Shown: one piece after another, positions 8,810-54,848 of the stretch
Layout of the letters: each line of letters begins with the position of its first letter
Numbering within the stretch: position 1 is the first letter of the stretch
Assembly (NCBI GenBank): GCA_038314665.1
Contig: GCA_038314665.1_3677.1
Length of the DNA stretch: 64,000 bases
Direction: 5' to 3' (one strand)
Source of the DNA: a phage
Notes under the pieces: model-generated
Told to the model about the DNA's origin: nothing
Seen by the model: only the letters and a program-made list of their open reading frames with translations
Databases searched by the model: none
Program-made: the position numbers and the translations under genes

Positions 8810-9073
8810 ATGAAACGTCTTGATCAGCTTAAACTAGTTCAGTACATGGCCTACAAAGTTCTTGAAGTCCAAAAAGGTAGCAAAAAAGAGGTTTGCGAGA
8901 AAGCATATAAGATCTTTACCCGTAAAAAAGATGATTGGATGTTACGCCAGACTAAAAAAGCCGATATCCTGGGGTACCTGGAAGAAGAGATCCGACTTGA
9001 AGAGCAAGAAGAGATCCGCCGCAGTGAGGCAGATTATCAGGCAGCCTGGGAAAACTGGATGAGTAACAAATAA
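8810..9073 (+). CDS. hypothetical protein (87 aa)
   Basis: ORF with RBS AAAGAGGTAAAC and hairpin GGGCCGGGAGGCCC in the leader. Confidence 0.55.
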   Translation: MKRLDQLKLVQYMAYKVLEVQKGSKKEVCEKAYKIFTRKKDDWMLRQTKKADILGYLEEEIRLEEQEEIRRSEADYQAAWENWMSNK

Positions 9074-9140
9074 TACAACAAGTTGCACGATCAGGGGGCA
9101 ATAAAGCCCCTTGATCACATAAAAATTATGCTATCCTTGG

Positions 9141-9169
9141 TTGACAAGGATCGGCAGTTTTGCTATATT
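9141..9169 (+). promoter_or_regulatory. sigma70-like promoter (TTGACA-N17-TATATT)
   Basis: upstream of the CDS at 9219. Confidence 0.6.
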
Positions 9170-9218
9170 CTTTTTTGAAGGGAAGTTGTAAGAAAATTAA
9201 CTAAGAGGTAAAAACACC

Positions 9219-9638
9219 ATGAACATTAAATCTAATAATCCGGCATATAGCTTTGATAACGCTTTTTGTCACGGTCCGGCGGCGAAAGGATTCGAAATCG
9301 ATGGTAAACTAATTATTGTCAATGTTGACGGGGAAGAGGTTGCAGTATATCCGGTGGCAGACGTAAAAAGCCGTTTACAATGCCGCATTGATGTTACCGC
9401 CTATCAGCTTGATCCGGTCCGCATAGTTGCCCTGGTCCTGGAAGAAGAAATTAAAGCCATGCACCATAGCAACAGGTTTATTGGTGACGCTCAGGATAAT
9501 ATGAAGGTGTGCCGCCATAAAGTTAATGAAGTGCTTAAAGAGTACGGTTATAAAGATCTGATGATCAAACGTGAGGAAAAATTCCGCTACCGTAACGACC
9601 TGGCAAATCGAATCTATGAAATATACGAATCATTATAA
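9219..9638 (+). CDS. hypothetical protein (139 aa)
   Basis: ORF with AAGAGG RBS; last gene of the plus-strand early block. Confidence 0.6.
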   Translation: MNIKSNNPAYSFDNAFCHGPAAKGFEIDGKLIIVNVDGEEVAVYPVADVKSRLQCRIDVTAYQLDPVRIVALVLEEEIKAMHHSNRFIGDAQDNMKVCRHKVNEVLKEYGYKDLMIKREEKFRYRNDLANRIYEIYESL

Positions 9639-9656
9639 TTTCTTAACTAAACTATC

Positions 9657-9685
9657 AGGGGCTTTAAAAGGCCCCTTTCTTTTTG
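9657..9685 (+). terminator. rho-independent terminator
   Basis: GGGGC-TTTAAAAG-GCCCC hairpin followed by TTTCTTTTTG. Confidence 0.7.
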
Positions 9686-10292
9686 TCTGTATTTCTCCTA
9701 CCACAAACGGCCCCACCTGGCAAGTGGAATAATTGACTAGCCATCAATCCCACACACTGTACAAACATACATGTAAAATAACTATTGCATAATTTTTCAT
9801 TGTGTGGTAGCAGGGCCATTTTTACCCGTTTTCTCTCTCAAAATTGCACGTAATGCCGCTATTGCACAAAATTTAACCTGATGCATATCTTCAATAGCTT
9901 GTCAACAACTAAAAATCTTTATAAGTCATACACTTACACACTCACAAAAGCGTGTTCTACGTGAAAAATCGAGTATAACTATAGCCGCCAGATCTCAGAA
10001 TTTACGTACGTTCACCATTCTATAGTCTGCTAAGTATTTATTCCAACCATAGAATAATGGAATAGTCAATACCTGCATAAAATAATTATTCGTATAAACT
10101 GCATAACATAAATCAGCTTAGGTGTCAACATTTTTCGTAAACAGCCTGAAATTATCACGGTGAGTTATCATAAACAGAGAAATCTTTAGTCGTCTAATGT
10201 TTACTGTACATTACTATACTTACTGGAATCATTAGATGACTAAGAGAAAGATAAGAAATAATTAACAATACAATTATTTTATATGTAACAAT

Positions 10293-10483
10293 AAGGCAAC
10301 TATGCAAACGAATGGCATGGCGCGACGGAGTCGCGACATAATATAAAAGCAGTAACCATCACCCCCGTGATAGTTTGTCTGCAATCTATTAATCAGATCA
10401 TAGTTGCCTTGTATTTAGTTAATCATGACATAACAAGCAAGGCAACTATAGATCTGCTAATAGTTGCCCTGCTTTTATATTAT
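10293..10483. repeat. nested inverted-repeat / hairpin cluster
   Basis: GGCAACTAT and ATAGTTGCC alternate four times; 15-bp inverted repeat ATAATATAAAAGCAG / CTGCTTTTATATTAT; palindromes CGCGAC..GTCGCG and GTGACTAAAGGTCAC; flanked by 20-bp direct repeats ATGCAAACGAATGGCATGGC (10303) and ATGCAAACGAATGTCATGGC (10609). Confidence 0.6.
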
Positions 10484-10629
10484 GTCATAGAAACACCCGA
10501 AGGGGTGACTAAAGGTCACCTGGCATAGCCAGTGAAAGATTATTAACCTGCTAATTGTCAGCTTATTGGCTGTTAGCTTGTCAATTGTTAACTTGTTAAT
10601 TGTTATCATGCAAACGAATGTCATGGCTT

Positions 10630-10800
10630 ATCATTTTTGTGTAAACAGTCAATCATGTAAATGATAAGTATGTGAACAGTTATCCATGTAAACTATTAGA
10701 TATGTAAACTATCGGTTATGTAAACAGTAAGAGCGTGAACAGTAAAGGGAGTGAATAGTAATAGCGTGAATAGTGACAGCGTAAACAGTCAGGCATGTCA
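10630..10800. repeat. tandem degenerate short repeats (ATGTAAAC / GTGAACAGT / GTGAATAGT units)
   Basis: at least ten units, roughly 11-14 bp period, visible by eye; non-coding. Confidence 0.6.
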
Positions 10801-11363
10801 ATTATGTTTAATGTGCCCAGTATGTCAAAGGTGTCATGTTATGTCACTATTGTGTCAGACAAGTTTTTCTCCTCTTTGTCAAGTGCTGCATGAAAAATTT
10901 ACAATCTGGTATGGTAGCATTTTTGCGGCCCTGTTTACATTCAGTTGTGTATGTATAATCCTTGTTGTGCGGGCGTTTGGACGTCTAGATGGTTGGAAGT
11001 CTGCAGGTCAATATCTAATCTATCGGCTGTTAACTATATCCCACACAAATAGTAAGAAATATAATTGTTATATGCGTAAACAGTAACTCATGTTATCAAT
11101 CCCTGTATGTATCGCCAGTGGTGCGCATAATGGGTATTATGTTAAATTGCCCGTAATGATAACTATTCTCACAATGATAGGTATTCTCATTCAATCCCAC
11201 AAGATAGGTTGCAAATGTTGTGCCACTGTGTGAACGGCCTCACCTATTAATTTGCCACACTGCCCCGATATTTGAGAATTGTTATAAGAATGAGAAGTAT
11301 TCCCATTTCGTCCGCCTGGCAGCACTCCAGTCGCTACCGCTTATGACAGGGCAGAGCTAGACC

Positions 11364-11512
11364 CTCTTCAGATATTTCTGGCTGACTCTTCAGGTCTGTG
11401 TGGGAAAAGCCAATCTCTCCGGCGGCGGGGAGGGGGTCAATTAAAAAATTTATGTGGTGTATGAAGCGCTCTTCAGGTAAGGCATGTATTATGGGATGAA
11501 ACCCTCTTCAGG
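11364..11512. repeat. cluster of CTCTTCAGG motifs
   Basis: copies at 11364, 11386, 11469 and 11504, with further copies at 11894 and 12544; interleaved G-rich GGCGGGGAGGGGGT (11421) and CCCGGCGGGGCAGGGG (11566). Confidence 0.5.
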
Positions 11513-12253
11513 TGATGATATTTGTGGGTGTGATATTTGCTGGAAAGTCAGATATGACGGGACTCCCGGCGGGGCAGGGGTAGTACAGACAGGGAAAATA
11601 TGGGGATGTAGTTGGGGAAATTGATCAGACAGGTGGAGTATAGTATATGTTACAAGTATGTTAAATAGAGAGGTTTAATATCTGTAAGATTTGTGTGTAA
11701 AATCAAAGACTTAAGTGGTGTTGTGGTATTTTCTATAAATAATTCAAGTTTAATAGGGAATATTTGTCAGAAAGGCAGGTTCAGGTTATTTAAAGTGGTA
11801 TTTCAGATGCATGTTTACAGAAGCAGGTAACCCCCCTCCCCCTTCGGCTACCATTCACCTTTTCCTCTGACTGGTACTTAAACACTTATTCAGACTCTTC
11901 AGGTTATCACCCATATATCATATGGCAGTGACTGGTGTCCTCCGGCCCCTCTTTCGTCACCCGTCCGCTTCGCCATGCTAATGCCATAGCCAGTGGTTCG
12001 GTTGTTCACCCTGTTCACTCAGGTGTATCTCCATACCCCTTCAAACCGAAGAGAACAGAAAACCCGAATTACTCGGTAAAAGAAAAGAGAAGAACTTAAT
12101 TTTATCAGGATAGGCAAGAATGTCAAGGCATGACTGCTCACTAAACAAGCAAACAGTCATGTGTGGGAGGTAAGTGATTGTGGTGGTAGGAAATTTAGTT
12201 GAAAGATGTGTTATGGGTGCTCCCAGCACTTTAGCCGGGCAATTAATTGTGTG

Positions 12254-12469
12254 TCAGTCCAGTGGTTCATCCCCTACTTCACTGAAATCGATGTTCATGG
12301 TCTCCTCCCAACCATCAATCTCAGCACCAGAGTAGAGATCTTTAGGACTTACTCCCAAAGCCTCAGCAACAGAGTCCATATTTAACACCTCTGGCAGGTA
12401 TGATTCATCGAATTCAAGGTAAATCAGGCCACGAGTGTTGTCAGCTCCACCAAATATTTCTATCTTCAT
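12254..12469 (-). CDS. hypothetical small acidic protein (71 aa)
   Basis: last ORF of the minus-strand array; acidic C-terminus. Confidence 0.5.
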   Translation of the reverse strand: MKIEIFGGADNTRGLIYLEFDESYLPEVLNMDSVAEALGVSPKDLYSGAEIDGWEETMNIDFSEVGDEPLD

Positions 12470-12590
12470 GAAATCTCCTCTGGAAATGAGAGTGTGAACA
12501 GGGTTTTATACGTCCCAATGCACAGGAATTATGCACGTTTGCCTCTTCAGGCCATGCTTTAGCATGAGGAACCTGTGTGGGCTCGGTGCT

Positions 12591-12896
12591 TCATAGTCTA
12601 CCACCCCTGAACTCTTCGTGCTCAGGCATAATAGAGAACCAGATAACTACGATGTCTTCCCACGTTAGGTCATCAGCCTCAGGATCTACCTGGAGTGAAG
12701 ATGGAGAATCTTCAGAATCGAAGTTTTCCTCTTGCACTGGCTCAGTCAAGGGACATACAGTCACTCCTTTGGATGTCTCTTCAGATGCATGTGTGTTTAT
12801 CATGTTCCACCCGTGAGTATTCCGGCAACAGCCGCTATGGACATAATGATCATCAGGATCACCACAAAAACCTCTGACAATGTTCTCATTGTGCAC
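12591..12896 (-). CDS. hypothetical acidic protein (101 aa)
   Basis: ORF only; start uncertain. Confidence 0.3.
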   Translation of the reverse strand: MHNENIVRGFCGDPDDHYVHSGCCRNTHGWNMINTHASEETSKGVTVCPLTEPVQEENFDSEDSPSSLQVDPEADDLTWEDIVVIWFSIMPEHEEFRGGRL

Positions 12897-13162
12897 TCCA
12901 TATTCTTCAGACTATGTGTGGATACTATCACTGGAGCGGTAATGTGTCAACAGAAACGCCGCGAGGGTTTGGTTAAAATCCGAGCGTATGGTGATTTGGG
13001 TCAAAACGGACGTGCGTTCTCGCTACGCTCGAAATAGAGAGTTGTTTGTAGAAAGCTCTTAAACGCTCTGTAATGAGATTATCTGTCCAAGGTATGCAAT
13101 CGTGCACCAGATAAAGAAAAGGACGCCACAGAGCGTCCTAGGTGTCTTAAATTTGATATTTT

Positions 13163-13474
13163 CTATACCCATGAGGGCTTATCAAGGTTGGAGTAGCTGA
13201 AAGGTGTCAAAAGGTGACTGTCAAAATCCCTCAAACTATCCAAATCTTTTTCCTCGTCCTGACACCATCTGTGCCTACATTTATTGTTGTAGTGCATGGA
13301 ATGCATAGCGTTCTGCAACTTAACAGGCACAAGTGATTCAGGAGTAGATAGTATTGCAGGGTATGCCAGAACCACCTCAAACAGTGGAAACACATCGAAA
13401 CTAAAGTCTACCTCTGCAGAGGTTGATGGCATGTAGGAGTATTTAGCCGCCTTTGTAGACATAATCCACCTCAC
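13163..13474 (-). CDS. hypothetical protein (103 aa)
   Basis: ORF overlapping the upstream stop. Confidence 0.4.
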   Translation of the reverse strand: MRWIMSTKAAKYSYMPSTSAEVDFSFDVFPLFEVVLAYPAILSTPESLVPVKLQNAMHSMHYNNKCRHRWCQDEEKDLDSLRDFDSHLLTPFSYSNLDKPSWV

Positions 13475-13797
13475 ACAGGTTTGATAATACCTTTACCGAA
13501 TAATTCTTCGTATCTAATCTTATCCGGATCCCACTCCTGGATAATTTCGAAGACAATATCCAACCCAGGGATAATCACTTCTCCAGTGTCAAGTTTGGCA
13601 AGAACAAAACCAGAAGGCTGAATGGTTTCCCAGTTGCGACGATTGGAATAGAAGACCTCGAAAATATCACCGACCTTGATCTGTTGATCAAGATGTTCAA
13701 GATTCTCTTTCATATAGACGCAGCGGATTTTTCGTGCAGGCCATAGACCACCTGCATCACGTTCATTCAATTCTTTTACAGTGATCGGCATACCCAT
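13471..13797 (-). CDS. hypothetical protein (108 aa)
   Basis: ORF with RBS; no domain recognised. Confidence 0.5.
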   Translation of the reverse strand: MGMPITVKELNERDAGGLWPARKIRCVYMKENLEHLDQQIKVGDIFEVFYSNRRNWETIQPSGFVLAKLDTGEVIIPGLDIVFEIIQEWDPDKIRYEELFGKGIIKPV

Positions 13798-13850: not shown

Positions 13851-14156
13851 TTATTCTACAGAGCGTTTGAACAGAATGTCTGCCTCAGACATGTGCTCAA
13901 CCTCTTCTTCGATTTTAGCTCGACGTTTTTCCGCCTCATAGCGAATATCGAACTCGGTAGCCACCAGAGATTTGATGAATTTAGGAGAATACAGATGATC
14001 CTGCTTCTCAACGAGAATGATATCCTTAATGGCATCTTTCAGATCTTTAATCTGAAGTTGGAGTTCCACCAGTTCTTCGATTGTTTTGCGAAGGCGATCA
14101 CGCTCTGCAGTGTCAGAAGGAAGAGAGGTGAACAGTTCAACTTTAGATTTAGCCAT
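13851..14156 (-). CDS. hypothetical coiled-coil protein (101 aa)
   Basis: AAGGAGA RBS; heptad-like EELVELQLQIKDLKDAIKD. Confidence 0.55.
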   Translation of the reverse strand: MAKSKVELFTSLPSDTAERDRLRKTIEELVELQLQIKDLKDAIKDIILVEKQDHLYSPKFIKSLVATEFDIRYEAEKRRAKIEEEVEHMSEADILFKRSVE

Positions 14157-53908: not shown

Positions 53909-53983
53909 GCCCTGTTAGCTTAGTGGATAAAGCAGCGGCCTTCTAAGCCGTTGACACTGGTTCGAGTCCAGTACGGGGTGCCA
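53909..53983 (+). tRNA. tRNA-Arg (anticodon TCT)
   Basis: manual cloverleaf: acceptor GCCCTGT/ACGGGGT, anticodon loop CTTCTAA, T-loop TTCGAGT, encoded CCA. Confidence 0.75.
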
Positions 53984-54113
53984 AGTTCTTTTTAATGTAG
54001 CTTACTTTAGCAGAGTAAATCTTCGGCAAGTGGCGGTAACCACTTTACCGATACCTCATAGTTAGTGGTGAGAACACTAGCTATTTTAAAAAGAATTTAA
54101 ATATTAGTATTTA

Positions 54114-54201
54114 GGTGAGTTAATTCCGTAGGGGTAGCGGGGCAGACTGTAAATCTGTTATCATTGCGATTCGGGTGGTTCGACTCCATCACTCACCACC
54201 A
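54114..54201 (+). tRNA. tRNA-Tyr (anticodon GTA)
   Basis: acceptor GGTGAGT/ACTCACC, anticodon loop CTGTAAA, long variable arm, CCA. Confidence 0.8.
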
Positions 54202-54315
54202 AATTTATATTTTTAAATGCATAAATCATACAGATAATGGCATTGATATTTATCGTCGTTTATACTAGTCACTAACTGCTCGAAAATCAGTGTCATTATC
54301 AGTATAATTTATAAA

Positions 54316-54406
54316 GGAGGGTAGGGAGCAATGGTGCTCAAGCGGTCTTGAAAACCGTCCCATTGAGGATGACTCGATGATGGTTCGATTCCATTACTCT
54401 CCGCCA
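54316..54406 (+). tRNA. tRNA-Ser (anticodon TGA)
   Basis: acceptor GGAGGGT/ACTCTCC, anticodon loop CTTGAAA, long variable arm, CCA. Confidence 0.75.
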
Positions 54407-54504
54407 CATTGTTGACCTTGTAATTAAGCGAAAGCCGGAAGCAGAACCGGATTATCAAATGTTACAGTCGTCATCGCCGACTAGCAACATGGTCAACATA
54501 CTGA

Positions 54505-54603
54505 GCTAGGTAAGCCCTTTGGCAAGGGCGAGGATTTTTAATCCTGAAAATAGACGAGGTAGTCGTTGAATACATAGGTGGTTCGATTCCACCGCCTAGC
54601 ACC
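54505..54603 (+). tRNA. atypical tRNA-like gene (99 nt), anticodon possibly TTT
   Basis: acceptor GCTAGGT/GCCTAGC and T-arm GGTGG-TTCGATT-CCACC are clear; loop TTTTTAA on a short stem; about 30 nt between anticodon arm and T-arm. Confidence 0.4.
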
Positions 54604-54608
54604 TTTTT

Positions 54609-54684
54609 GCTGATGTAGCACAATTGGCAGTGCAATTGATTTGTAATCAATAGGTTGCAGGTTCAAGTCCTGCCATCAGCACCA
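54609..54684 (+). tRNA. tRNA-Thr (anticodon TGT)
   Basis: acceptor GCTGATG/CATCAGC, anticodon loop TTTGTAA, T-loop TTCAAGT, CCA. Confidence 0.8.
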
Positions 54685-54685
54685 A

Positions 54686-54760
54686 GGCCCTGTAGCTGGA
54701 AGGTTCAAGCAAGCGACTCATAATCGCCAGACGGTGGTTCAATTCCACCCAGGGCCACCA
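54686..54760 (+). tRNA. tRNA-Met (anticodon CAT; elongator Met or Ile2 type)
   Basis: acceptor GGCCCTG/CAGGGCC, anticodon loop CTCATAA, CCA. Confidence 0.7.
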
Positions 54761-54771
54761 AATGGTAAATA

Positions 54772-54848
54772 CTCCGCGTAGCTCAGCTTGGTAGAGCGCC
54801 TGATTTGGGATCAGGAGGTCGAGTGTTCGAATCACTCCGTGGAGACCA
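54772..54848 (+). tRNA. tRNA-Pro (anticodon TGG)
   Basis: acceptor CTCCGCG/CGTGGAG with C1-G72, anticodon loop TTTGGGA, T-loop TTCGAAT, CCA. Confidence 0.8.

What the first reader, a model, noticed from the sequence alone, without database searches (positions are those of the whole stretch)
10630..10800. Array of ATGTAAAC / GTGAACAGT short tandem repeats
At least ten degenerate units (TGTAAACAGT, TGTGAACAGT, ATGTAAACTAT, CGTGAATAGT and similar) lie head to tail with a period of about 11-14 bp, roughly one helical turn. This pattern suggests cooperative binding of a DNA-binding protein, as at iterons, pac sites or partition sites.
Basis: seen in the sequence. Interest (0 to 1): 0.5.

Follow-up and report, generated by a model that had tools for sequence, protein, structure and literature searches.

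The report
Repeat array beside phage genome end
The repeats are real: ten phased 9-bp motifs sit 68 bp outside the 459-bp terminal repeat of an rV5-like coliphage, so they are probably accessory protein-binding sites for processing the chromosome end, like the short-repeat arrays beside the terminal repeat of phage T7.

Summary
The array exists and is far beyond chance, but its period is 15-16 bp (about 1.5 helical turns), not 11-14 bp. There are ten same-strand cores GTRAAYWRT at 10641-10789.

The window is an rV5-like coliphage (Vequintavirus). The array lies in the known 2.6-kb "non-coding" region of rV5, which has no assigned function. Published terminal repeats of phages EdH4 and Gotham map the 459-bp direct terminal repeat (DTR) to window 10858-11316. 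The array is therefore unique DNA 68 bp outside one physical genome boundary. A second array (RTGTCA, about 10-bp period) fills the gap and abuts the cut site.

Across 18 relatives the core, strand, register and 15/16-bp phase are kept and the spacers are free. Unit number runs from 0 to about 11, so the array is constrained but dispensable.

It shows no RNA structure, no coding frame and no origin-like or partition-like context.

The closest known analogue is the T7 SRL/SRR arrays beside its terminal repeat, which also vary in copy number among close relatives.

Best reading (confidence about 0.45): accessory binding sites for a terminase or end-processing protein. It is a new member of a known kind, of moderate interest.

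The parts
10641..10789 (+). Array A: ten direct GTRAAYWRT cores, period 15-16 bp. This is the finding itself.
   Evidence: The same array has 0 to about 11 units in 17 relatives, always on the same strand and in 15/16 phase. Core information is 0.7-2.1 bits per position; spacer information is 0.02-0.6.
10795..10857 (+). Array B: five RTGTCA units at 10795, 10822, 10831, 10841 and 10852. The last three are about 10 bp apart, and the last unit ends exactly at the genome terminus.
   Evidence: 5 copies against 0.04 expected. The number and spacing of units vary among relatives, but the final TGTCA|GACAAG junction is invariant.
10858..11316 (.). The 459-bp direct terminal repeat (DTR) of the virion chromosome. 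The physical ends fall at 10857|10858 and 11316|11317.
   Evidence: The record ends of EdH4 and Gotham are exact 459-bp repeats and map to 11316->10858. Published values are 458 bp (PMC6563267) and 459 bp with the same start in all virions (PMC7471380). The YN3 record starts at 11316 and the ECP2303 record ends at 10858. The boundaries are homologous to the PhageTerm-derived DTR boundaries of KPP-1.
10608..10634 (+). Conserved box ATGCAAACGAATGTCATGGCTTATCAT. The first array unit always starts 13 nt after its 20-nt core. A second copy of that core lies at 10302-10321.
   Evidence: family D12. Nearly invariant in alignment A1, where only the G/T at 10621 varies. Fixed register in all the relatives that keep this copy of the box.
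10570..10606 (+). Short TTGTYAATTGTTA-type repeats (period 7/15) just upstream of the box.
   Evidence: family D6.
10335..10486 (.). Large branched palindrome with an 18-nt perfect closing stem (10335-10352 / 10469-10486), 372 bp from the DTR boundary.
   Evidence: I1, I8, I19. Fold z = -9.0 (+ strand) and -9.8 (- strand). Present in all 18 relatives, including V18. An element of unrelated sequence occupies the equivalent position in KPP-1.
11076..11084 (+). Isolated perfect core GTAAACAGT inside the DTR. A near-perfect inverted copy, GTAAACAGG, lies at 10930-10938 on the - strand.
   Evidence: PWM hits outside the array run at 4.3 per kb in the non-coding region, against 1.3 per kb elsewhere.
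10876..10905 (+). Sigma-70-like promoter TTGTCA-18-TACAAT inside the DTR, pointing inward from the 10858 end.
   Evidence: Nearly invariant among relatives in alignment A1. A similar TTGTCA...TACAAA is seen at the equivalent place in KPP-1 (read by eye).
11364..11513 (+). Four CTCTTCAG(G) motifs on the other flank of the DTR, irregularly spaced (22, 83 and 35 bp).
   Evidence: D3, D14, D17. Conserved in sequence and not variable in copy number.

Best explanation
Array A is a set of tandem binding sites for a sequence-specific DNA-binding protein that acts at the end of the phage chromosome. It is one module of a composite end-control region: large palindrome, conserved box, array A (15.6-bp phase), array B (RTGTCA, about 10-bp phase), cut site, then the 459-bp DTR.

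The proposed mechanism is as follows. During processing of replicated concatemers, the terminase small subunit or another end-processing factor loads on the repeats next to the junction. This helps to position or time the cut at 10857|10858 and the duplication of the DTR.

The array is accessory and its dose is tunable. It is not essential, because natural isolates carry from 0 to about 11 units.

Shown: the array, its statistics, its position relative to the mapped termini, the contrast between core and spacer conservation, and the copy-number variation. Inferred: that a protein binds it. Speculative: which protein binds, and the link to packaging.
For: (1) The array is real and non-random.

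(2) It lies in unique DNA 68 bp outside a DTR boundary. That boundary was mapped from two published, independently determined terminal repeats and from four record ends. It is homologous to the PhageTerm-derived boundaries of KPP-1 in another genus.

(3) Among 58 distinct units from 17 array-bearing phages (the window and 16 relatives), the 9-bp core carries 0.7-2.1 bits per position and the spacer 0.02-0.6 bits. Strand, register to the conserved box and the 15/16 phase are always kept. This is the signature of selection for a recognition sequence, not of slippage alone.

(4) Extra copies of the core are enriched in the surrounding end region, including two inside the DTR.

(5) T7 has the same layout. 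Its terminal repeat spans 1-160 (my recollection of Dunn and Studier 1983). About 12 CCTAAAG cores with a period of about 13 bp follow at 174-340, with copies of the core inside the repeat and a second array before the right repeat.

(6) In T7-like fPS phages the arrays beside the terminal repeats vary from 11 to 34 copies among genomes that are 90-97% identical (PMC5923468). This parallels the 0-11 range found here.

(7) The array predicts no RNA structure (z +1.7 and +0.7). Its 15/16-bp indels cannot keep a reading frame.
Against: No binding protein has been identified. The neighbouring genes have no Pfam domains and only unknown-function PHROGs.

The array is dispensable. The V18 record lacks it entirely and navn keeps only one clear unit.

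KPP-1, in another genus of the same subfamily, has homologous termini but no tandem array.

The phAPEC8-like phages show only three weak units of period 15.

As far as I know, the function of the T7 arrays themselves was never established, so the analogy transfers architecture and not a proven mechanism.

The other DTR flank has no comparable phased array.
Confidence: 0.45

Rival explanations
1. The array is a set of binding sites for a host nucleoid protein or a phage regulator that controls transcription or DNA entry at the chromosome end. Examples would be a roadblock that insulates the DTR from the converging + strand operon, or control of the conserved promoter in the DTR.
For: The array sits between the end of the + strand gene block (terminator at 9657-9676) and the DTR, which carries a conserved sigma-70-like promoter. 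A transcriptional-regulator gene (phrog_639) lies at 13854-14156, and one perfect core lies inside it at 14128. The evidence for conserved cores over free spacers fits any DNA-binding protein.
Against: The core is otherwise absent from promoter regions of the 64-kb window. An intrinsic terminator already follows the last gene, about 1 kb upstream. Copy number down to zero is tolerated.
Confidence: 0.15
2. The array is a selectively neutral minisatellite that grows and shrinks by slippage or unequal recombination in a non-coding region, with no function.
For: Unit number ranges from 0 to about 11 among phages that are about 90-96% identical in the flanks. The array is the most variable part of the region. 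It is absent in KPP-1.
Against: Spacers have diverged to near-random, while cores stay at up to 2.1 bits per position across 58 distinct units. Slippage would copy core and spacer alike. The register to the conserved box, the strand and the 15/16 phase are kept in every array-bearing phage examined. Dispersed core copies are enriched in the same region.
Confidence: 0.13
3. The repeats are iterons of a replication origin, bound by an initiator to open nearby AT-rich DNA.
For: They are direct repeats in non-coding DNA. G+C falls to about 35% in 9500-11000, the stretch that includes the array. The rV5 authors noted a skew change at this locus while searching for the origin (PMC3606486). From memory, the phage P4 origin iteron TGTTCACC (reverse complement GGTGAACA) resembles the core.
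Against: The locus is a point of convergent transcription and the cumulative GC-skew maximum, as expected for a replication terminus or chromosome end and not an origin. The rV5 authors themselves attributed the skew changes to transcription orientation. No initiator-like gene is adjacent. Copy number is not conserved, and V18 lacks the array. The rV5 replisome genes are T7-like (PolA, gp4-type primase-helicase), and such systems do not use iteron-binding initiators (established knowledge).
Confidence: 0.12
4. The array is transcribed from the - strand into a repeat-containing non-coding RNA, for example a protein sponge or antitoxin-like RNA.
For: A strong promoter-like site, TTGACA-16-CATAAT, on the - strand at 10828-10801 points into the array. 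Terminator-like hairpins on the - strand follow at 10507-10494 and 10375-10354. An rV5-related phage, PhiTE, is known to carry a functional repeat RNA (pseudo-ToxI; PMC3475682, seen).
Against: The promoter lies in array B, whose sequence and unit number differ among relatives, so it is not conserved. Both strands fold worse than shuffled controls. There is no Rfam match. The 15-16-nt units with free spacers are unlike the 36-nt ToxI units.
Confidence: 0.07
5. The array is a partition (centromere-like) site such as parC or sopC.
For: Only the general resemblance of tandem direct repeats.
Against: No ParA-, ParB- or ParR-like gene was found among the eight neighbouring proteins. rV5 is described as a lytic phage (PMC3606486).
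Confidence: 0.02

Closest known systems
T7 SRL/SRR short-repeat arrays flanking the terminal repeat (Dunn and Studier 1983, from memory; sequence re-read here)
   Same: The genome has a short exact DTR with fixed ends. The array lies in unique DNA just outside the repeat boundary (T7 14 bp, here 68 bp). About 10-12 same-strand short cores occupy about 150-165 bp (T7: 7-bp CCTAAAG, period about 13; here: 9-bp core, period 15.6). Copies of the core also occur inside the repeat. Copy number varies among close relatives (fPS phages 11-34, PMC5923468; here 0-11). The replisome genes are T7-like.
   Different: The host virus is a 137-kb myovirus, not a 40-kb podovirus, and there is no sequence similarity. 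Here a second, helically phased array (RTGTCA) lies between array A and the cut. The opposite DTR flank lacks a comparable phased array. Genes converge on the end here, whereas early genes are transcribed away from the left end in T7. The function of the T7 arrays is itself not established.
Terminase recognition sites built of repeated motifs (lambda cosB R sites, SPP1 pacL/pacR boxes, P1 pac hexamers; from established knowledge)
   Same: Repeated short motifs lie next to the terminase cleavage site. Array B abuts the cut and has a period of about one helical turn.
   Different: Those sites are few, essential and conserved in number. Array A is 68-216 bp from the cut, has a 1.5-turn phase and varies from 0 to about 11 units. 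No terminase gene is adjacent. No binding has been shown.
Plasmid and phage origin iterons (lambda ori, P1 oriR, P4 ori/crr)
   Same: Same-strand direct repeats with a conserved core in non-coding DNA.
   Different: The period is 15.6 bp instead of about 19-22. No initiator gene is nearby. The locus is a point of convergent transcription and the skew maximum. Copy number is unconstrained.

Membership tests
DTR-flanking short-repeat arrays (T7 SRL/SRR type) | The genome has fixed ends with a short exact direct terminal repeat. | tested here: met
   The 459-bp exact repeats at the EdH4 and Gotham record ends map to window 10858-11316. Published in PMC6563267 and PMC7471380.
DTR-flanking short-repeat arrays (T7 SRL/SRR type) | The array lies in unique DNA directly outside a repeat boundary. 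| tested here: met
   The last core ends at 10789 and the boundary is at 10858, a gap of 68 bp that is filled by array B. In T7 the array starts at 174, and the repeat ends at 160 by my recollection.
DTR-flanking short-repeat arrays (T7 SRL/SRR type) | About ten or more same-strand short cores at a regular period of 12-16 bp. | tested here: met
   Ten cores with spacings of 15 or 16 bp. T7 has a period of about 13.
DTR-flanking short-repeat arrays (T7 SRL/SRR type) | Arrays are present on both flanks of the repeat. | tested here: inconclusive
   The other flank has four CTCTTCAG motifs at irregular spacing, conserved and not variable. This is not a comparable phased array.
DTR-flanking short-repeat arrays (T7 SRL/SRR type) | Copy number varies among close relatives. 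| tested here: met
   Units range from 0 to about 11 in 18 Vequintavirus sequences. fPS phages have 11-34.
DTR-flanking short-repeat arrays (T7 SRL/SRR type) | A role in concatemer processing or packaging. | not testable with these tools
   This needs binding and deletion experiments. As far as I know it is also unproven for T7.
Terminase recognition site (pac/cosB type) | The site is immediately adjacent to the terminase cut site. | tested here: inconclusive
   Array B ends exactly at the cut. Array A lies 68-216 bp away.
Terminase recognition site (pac/cosB type) | The site is essential and conserved in number among relatives. | tested here: not met
   Array A is absent in V18 and has 1-5 units in navn, FFH2, B9-1, ECO111 and FV3. 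Only the TGTCA|GACAAG junction and the DTR ends are invariant.
Terminase recognition site (pac/cosB type) | The site is bound by the terminase small subunit. | not testable with these tools
   No small-subunit gene was identified near the locus, and there is no binding assay.
Replication-origin iterons | An adjacent initiator gene and an AT-rich unwinding element. | tested here: not met
   The eight neighbouring proteins have no Pfam domain and no replication PHROG. The low-G+C stretch (about 35%, 9500-11000) includes the array, but no discrete unwinding element was identified.
Replication-origin iterons | The site lies where replication and transcription diverge (skew minimum). | tested here: not met
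   Gene blocks converge here and the cumulative GC skew peaks at about 12 kb.
Partition centromere (parC/parS/sopC) | Adjacent ParA/ParB/ParR genes and a plasmid-prophage lifestyle. | tested here: not met
   No such families were found in the neighbours. rV5 is described as a lytic phage.

The most novel reading that the evidence does not exclude
The rV5 'non-coding' region is a complete cis-acting machine for T7-style end formation in a large myovirus. A conserved branched palindrome would prime or mark DTR duplication. Two differently phased repeat arrays would load a not-yet-identified end-binding protein or terminase small subunit, with array A acting as a copy-number-tunable landing pad that sets packaging efficiency. 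The same architecture, with a palindrome about 300-370 bp from the DTR and homologous cut sites, extends to other Vequintavirinae genera.
Probability: 0.2. Interest if true: 0.6.

Novelty: new member of a known kind. Interest (0 to 1): 0.4.

Why it matters
Since 2013 the 2.6-kb gene-free block of rV5-like phages has been drawn as an unexplained 'non-coding' box (PMC3606486; PMC4591320). These phages are widely used in phage therapy and food biocontrol.

Placing the physical genome ends in the middle of that box gives it a concrete, testable role. The surrounding DNA is an ordered set of conserved and variable repeat modules.

The work gives exact coordinates for opening and annotating these genomes. 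Many GenBank records are opened arbitrarily near this locus.

It also names candidate cis elements for packaging studies and for engineering, such as what must be kept in synthetic or rebooted genomes.

Finally, it offers a second, experimentally tractable system for asking what terminal-repeat-flanking arrays do. As far as I know, that question was never settled for T7.

Tried and rejected
- Rfam scan of 9000-13500 at E <= 1: only two sub-threshold chance hits (ceN69 and suhB/mmgR), neither in the array.
- tRNA scan: the six tRNA genes lie at 53.9-54.8 kb, none near the locus.
- RNA folding of the array on both strands: worse than shuffled controls, so a structured RNA was rejected.
- ORF 10751-11086 (+, 111 aa) overlaps the array end and the DTR. 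It was rejected as a gene because array indels of 15/16 bp do not preserve a frame and most records annotate nothing there.
- Pfam and PHROGs on eight flanking proteins: no DNA-binding, terminase, replication or partition families next to the locus.
- IMG/VR scan with the DTR-boundary pattern: only two contigs, too few for a population survey.
- Assembly breakpoints as evidence for termini: many records open near here, but at scattered positions. Only the records with determined ends were used.
- The 546-bp duplication in I29 first looked like the DTR, but it maps to 11100-11641 and not to the DTR. It is treated as a probable assembly artefact.
- A search for the same array in other genera found none in KPP-1. 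The phAPEC8-like phages have only three weak period-15 units, whose cores differ between Schickermooser and ESCO5.
- Matches by eye to host-factor motifs (DnaA box, IHF, LexA, matS, Fis, EcoKI site): none convincing. These were not tested formally.
- Literature searches found no description of this array in rV5-like phages.

Full report
**Observation**

Reading window 10200-11300 shows ten head-to-tail units on the + strand. Their core G falls at 10641, 10657, 10672, 10688, 10704, 10720, 10735, 10751, 10766 and 10781. Nine match GTRAAYWRT exactly; the second is GTAAATGAT.

In the whole 64-kb window the pattern occurs 18 times on both strands, and 9 of these lie within 150 bp on one strand. Against the background rate this is 0.0105 expected (Poisson 4e-24). 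None of 100 Markov-simulated windows had more than 2 clustered hits. Tandem Repeats Finder reports periods of 16 and 15.

The spacings are 16, 15, 16, 16, 16, 15, 16, 15, 15, with a mean of 15.6 bp, or 1.48 helical turns.

**What genome this is**

The region is 90-96% identical to about 120 rV5-like coliphages of the genus Vequintavirus. It lies in an ORF-poor stretch between the last + strand gene (ending 9638) and the first - strand genes (from about 12254).

This is the 2,604-bp 'non-coding' box of rV5 (PMC3606486). A comparable 2,554-bp region is noted in Murica (PMC4591320). No function has been assigned. The rV5 authors noted a skew change at this locus and attributed it to the change in transcription direction.

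**The genome ends are here**

Korf et al. reported 458-bp terminal redundancies for the vequintaviruses EdH4 and HdK5 (PMC6563267). Dias et al. reported 459-bp terminal repeats and an identical start in all virions for Gotham (PMC7471380).

I fetched both ends of the EdH4 and Gotham records. In each, the first and last 459 bases are identical, and they map to window 11316->10858. Independently, the YN3 record begins exactly at window 11316 and the ECP2303 record ends exactly at 10858.

The two boundaries are ..TGTGTCA|GACAAGTTTTTC.. and ..CGTCCGCC|TGGCAGC... They are invariant in the genus. They align with the PhageTerm-derived DTR boundaries of Klebsiella phage KPP-1 in a different genus, GTCCGTC|TAGCACC and GAGAGAGAATTGTGT|.

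The DTR is therefore 10858-11316. Array A (10641-10789) is unique DNA that ends 68 bp outside one physical boundary, about 530-680 bp from one end of the virion DNA.

**Anatomy of the end region, left to right**

- A branched palindrome at 10335-10486, with an 18-nt perfect closing stem and fold z of -9.0 and -9.8 on the two strands.
- Short TTGTYAATTGTTA repeats at 10570-10606.
- A near-invariant box ATGCAAACGAATGKCATGGCTTATCAT at 10608-10634. Its 20-nt core also occurs at 10302.
- Array A.
- Array B: five RTGTCA units at 10795-10857. The last three are about 10 bp apart and the last ends at the cut (0.04 expected).
- The DTR. It carries a near-invariant sigma-70-like promoter (10876-10905, +) and two isolated copies of the array-A core (10930 on the - strand, 11076 on the + strand).
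- Four conserved CTCTTCAG motifs at irregular spacing at 11364-11513.

**Comparative behaviour of array A**

I parsed the box-to-DTR interval in the window and 17 relatives. In every phage that keeps the box next to the array, the first unit starts 13 nt after the box core. All units are on the same strand, and spacing is 15 or 16 bp (rarely 14).

The number of good units varies widely:
- 0 in V18, where the array and the second box are deleted;
- 1 in navn;
- 2-5 in FFH2, B9-1, ECO111, FV3, EdH4, Gotham and phiWec193;
- 7-8 in I29, A141 and Murica;
- about 8-11 in YN3, the window, rV5, JES2013 and the two IMG/VR contigs.

Over 58 distinct units, core positions 1-9 carry 2.07, 1.42, 0.92, 1.59, 1.67, 1.19, 0.70, 1.08 and 1.81 bits. 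Spacer positions 10-15 carry 0.02, 0.59, 0.33, 0.10, 0.16 and 0.32 bits.

A recognition sequence is thus maintained while the spacers drift, which argues for protein recognition. Unit number is free, including loss, which argues that the array is accessory. Array B also varies in unit number, but its last unit and the cut site never change.

**Other genera**

KPP-1 (Mydovirus) has homologous termini. It also has a 206-bp branched palindrome of unrelated sequence, with a 21-nt perfect stem and z of -9.6, 309 bp from the equivalent boundary. It has no tandem array.

Schickermooser and ESCO5 are phAPEC8-like phages of another subfamily, with a 328-bp DTR. They share with the window an 89%-identical 139-aa gene that is the last gene before the same genome end. 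They have only three weak period-15 units whose cores are not conserved.

Array A is therefore specific to Vequintavirus. The end architecture of cut sites and palindrome is older.

**Alternatives tested**

- Structured RNA: both strands fold worse than shuffles and there is no Rfam hit. A - strand promoter-like site at 10828-10801 points into the array. It lies in the variable array B and is not conserved.
- Coding: unit indels of 15/16 bp cannot keep a frame.
- Origin iterons: genes converge here, the cumulative GC skew peaks here, no initiator gene is adjacent and copy number is unconstrained.
- Partition site: there are no par genes nearby, and rV5 is described as a lytic phage.
- Neutral minisatellite: contradicted by the core/spacer contrast and the fixed register, although the dispensability keeps it alive as a rival.

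**Closest known**

I re-read T7. Its terminal repeat spans 1-160 (from memory). Then about 12 CCTAAAG-type cores with a period of about 13 bp occupy 174-340 (the SRL of Dunn and Studier, name from memory). Copies of the same core lie inside the repeat, and a further set lies before the right repeat.

In T7-like Yersinia fPS phages the repeats between the left terminal repeat and the first phage promoter number 11-34 among genomes that are 90-97% identical, and repeats also flank the right repeat (PMC5923468).

The present array shares these features: a short exact DTR, a position just outside it, about ten same-strand cores over about 150 bp, core copies inside the DTR, and copy-number plasticity. 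The phage also has T7-like replication genes.

It differs in several ways. It belongs to a large myovirus. It has a 15.6-bp phase and a second, helically phased array at the cut. It lacks a matching array on the other flank. Its gene blocks converge on the end.

**Mechanism proposed**

A sequence-specific protein binds the cores. Successive sites are about 170 degrees apart around the helix, and alternate sites 31 bp apart lie on the same face. Binding would build a nucleoprotein complex next to the concatemer junction that assists recognition or timing of the cut at 10857|10858 and duplication of the DTR. The candidates are the terminase small subunit or another end-processing factor.

The architecture, the constraint on the core and the position are shown. 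Binding is inferred. The identity of the protein and the link to packaging are speculative, and the function of the T7 arrays is itself unproven. I put this at about 0.45. The rivals are a transcription or entry regulator (0.15), a neutral minisatellite (0.13), origin iterons (0.12), a repeat RNA (0.07) and a partition site (0.02).

**Novelty and verdict**

I found no description of this array, or of the placement of the termini inside the 'non-coding' box, in the literature searches. The DTR itself is published and annotated in at least one record.

The finding is a new member of a known kind, a terminal-repeat-flanking short-repeat array. It has useful consequences for annotating and engineering rV5-like phages. 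Interest 0.4.

Noticed in passing
window 10335-10486 (also L019 2839-3044 in KPP-1; L016 2522-2667 in Schickermooser): A large branched palindrome with an 18-nt perfect closing stem and fold z of about -9 on both strands. It lies 372 bp from the DTR boundary and is kept in all 18 vequintaviruses examined, including V18, which lacks the array. KPP-1 has a 206-bp element of unrelated sequence (21-nt perfect stem, z -9.6) 309 bp from its equivalent boundary. This conserved architecture without conserved sequence suggests a function at the genome end, such as a hairpin or cruciform, or a structured RNA.
   Followed up: partly
window 9219-9638 (+): This 139-aa protein of unknown function (phrog_12277, no Pfam hit) is about 89% identical in phAPEC8-like phages (Stephanstirmvirinae, a different subfamily). 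Apart from this gene and its terminator, the end region compared (L016/L017) shows almost no DNA similarity to the window. In both groups it is the last gene before the same genome end.
   Followed up: partly
window 10876-10905 (+), inside the DTR: A near-invariant sigma-70-like promoter, TTGTCA-18-TACAAT, lies about 20-50 bp from the physical end at 10858 and points inward. A similar element sits at the same place in KPP-1. It would transcribe about 1.3 kb that holds no conserved gene.
   Followed up: partly
window 10857|10858 and 11316|11317; L019 2017 and 2530: The sequences at both terminase cut sites are conserved between Vequintavirus and Mydovirus: GTCCGYC|TRGCA at one end and CTTGACAA-purine-rich-TTGT at the other.
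   Followed up: partly
L009 (phage I29, ON286975) 1837-2976 = window 11100-11641: The I29 assembly contains an exact 546-bp tandem duplication, with a 60-nt inverted copy at the junction. It does not coincide with the DTR (10858-11316). It is probably an assembly artefact, but it remains unexplained.
   Followed up: partly
L021 (phage V18, KY683736): V18 lacks about 275 bp (window about 10525-10800), comprising the TTGTTAA repeats, the second conserved box and all of array A. A T12 run stands in their place. If the record is correct, this is a natural deletion mutant of the array.
   Followed up: partly
window 11364-11513, also 11895 and 12543: The motif CTCTTCAG(G) recurs six times on the + strand on the far side of the DTR. 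Four copies lie within 150 bp. The sequence is conserved among relatives, and the spacing is irregular.
   Followed up: partly
GenBank MG0656xx records: Nineteen 'Campylobacter phage' records, at least one marked UNVERIFIED and unannotated, are 91-96% identical to this coliphage region. They are probably mislabelled rV5-like coliphages.
   Followed up: no
window 54505-54603: ARAGORN calls a 99-nt tRNA-like gene with a four-base anticodon (atcc) inside the tRNA cluster at 53909-54848.
   Followed up: no
window 14128-14136 (+): The only perfect array core (GTGAACAGT) outside the end region lies near the 5' end of the gene for a predicted transcriptional regulator (13854-14156, - strand, phrog_639).
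   Followed up: no
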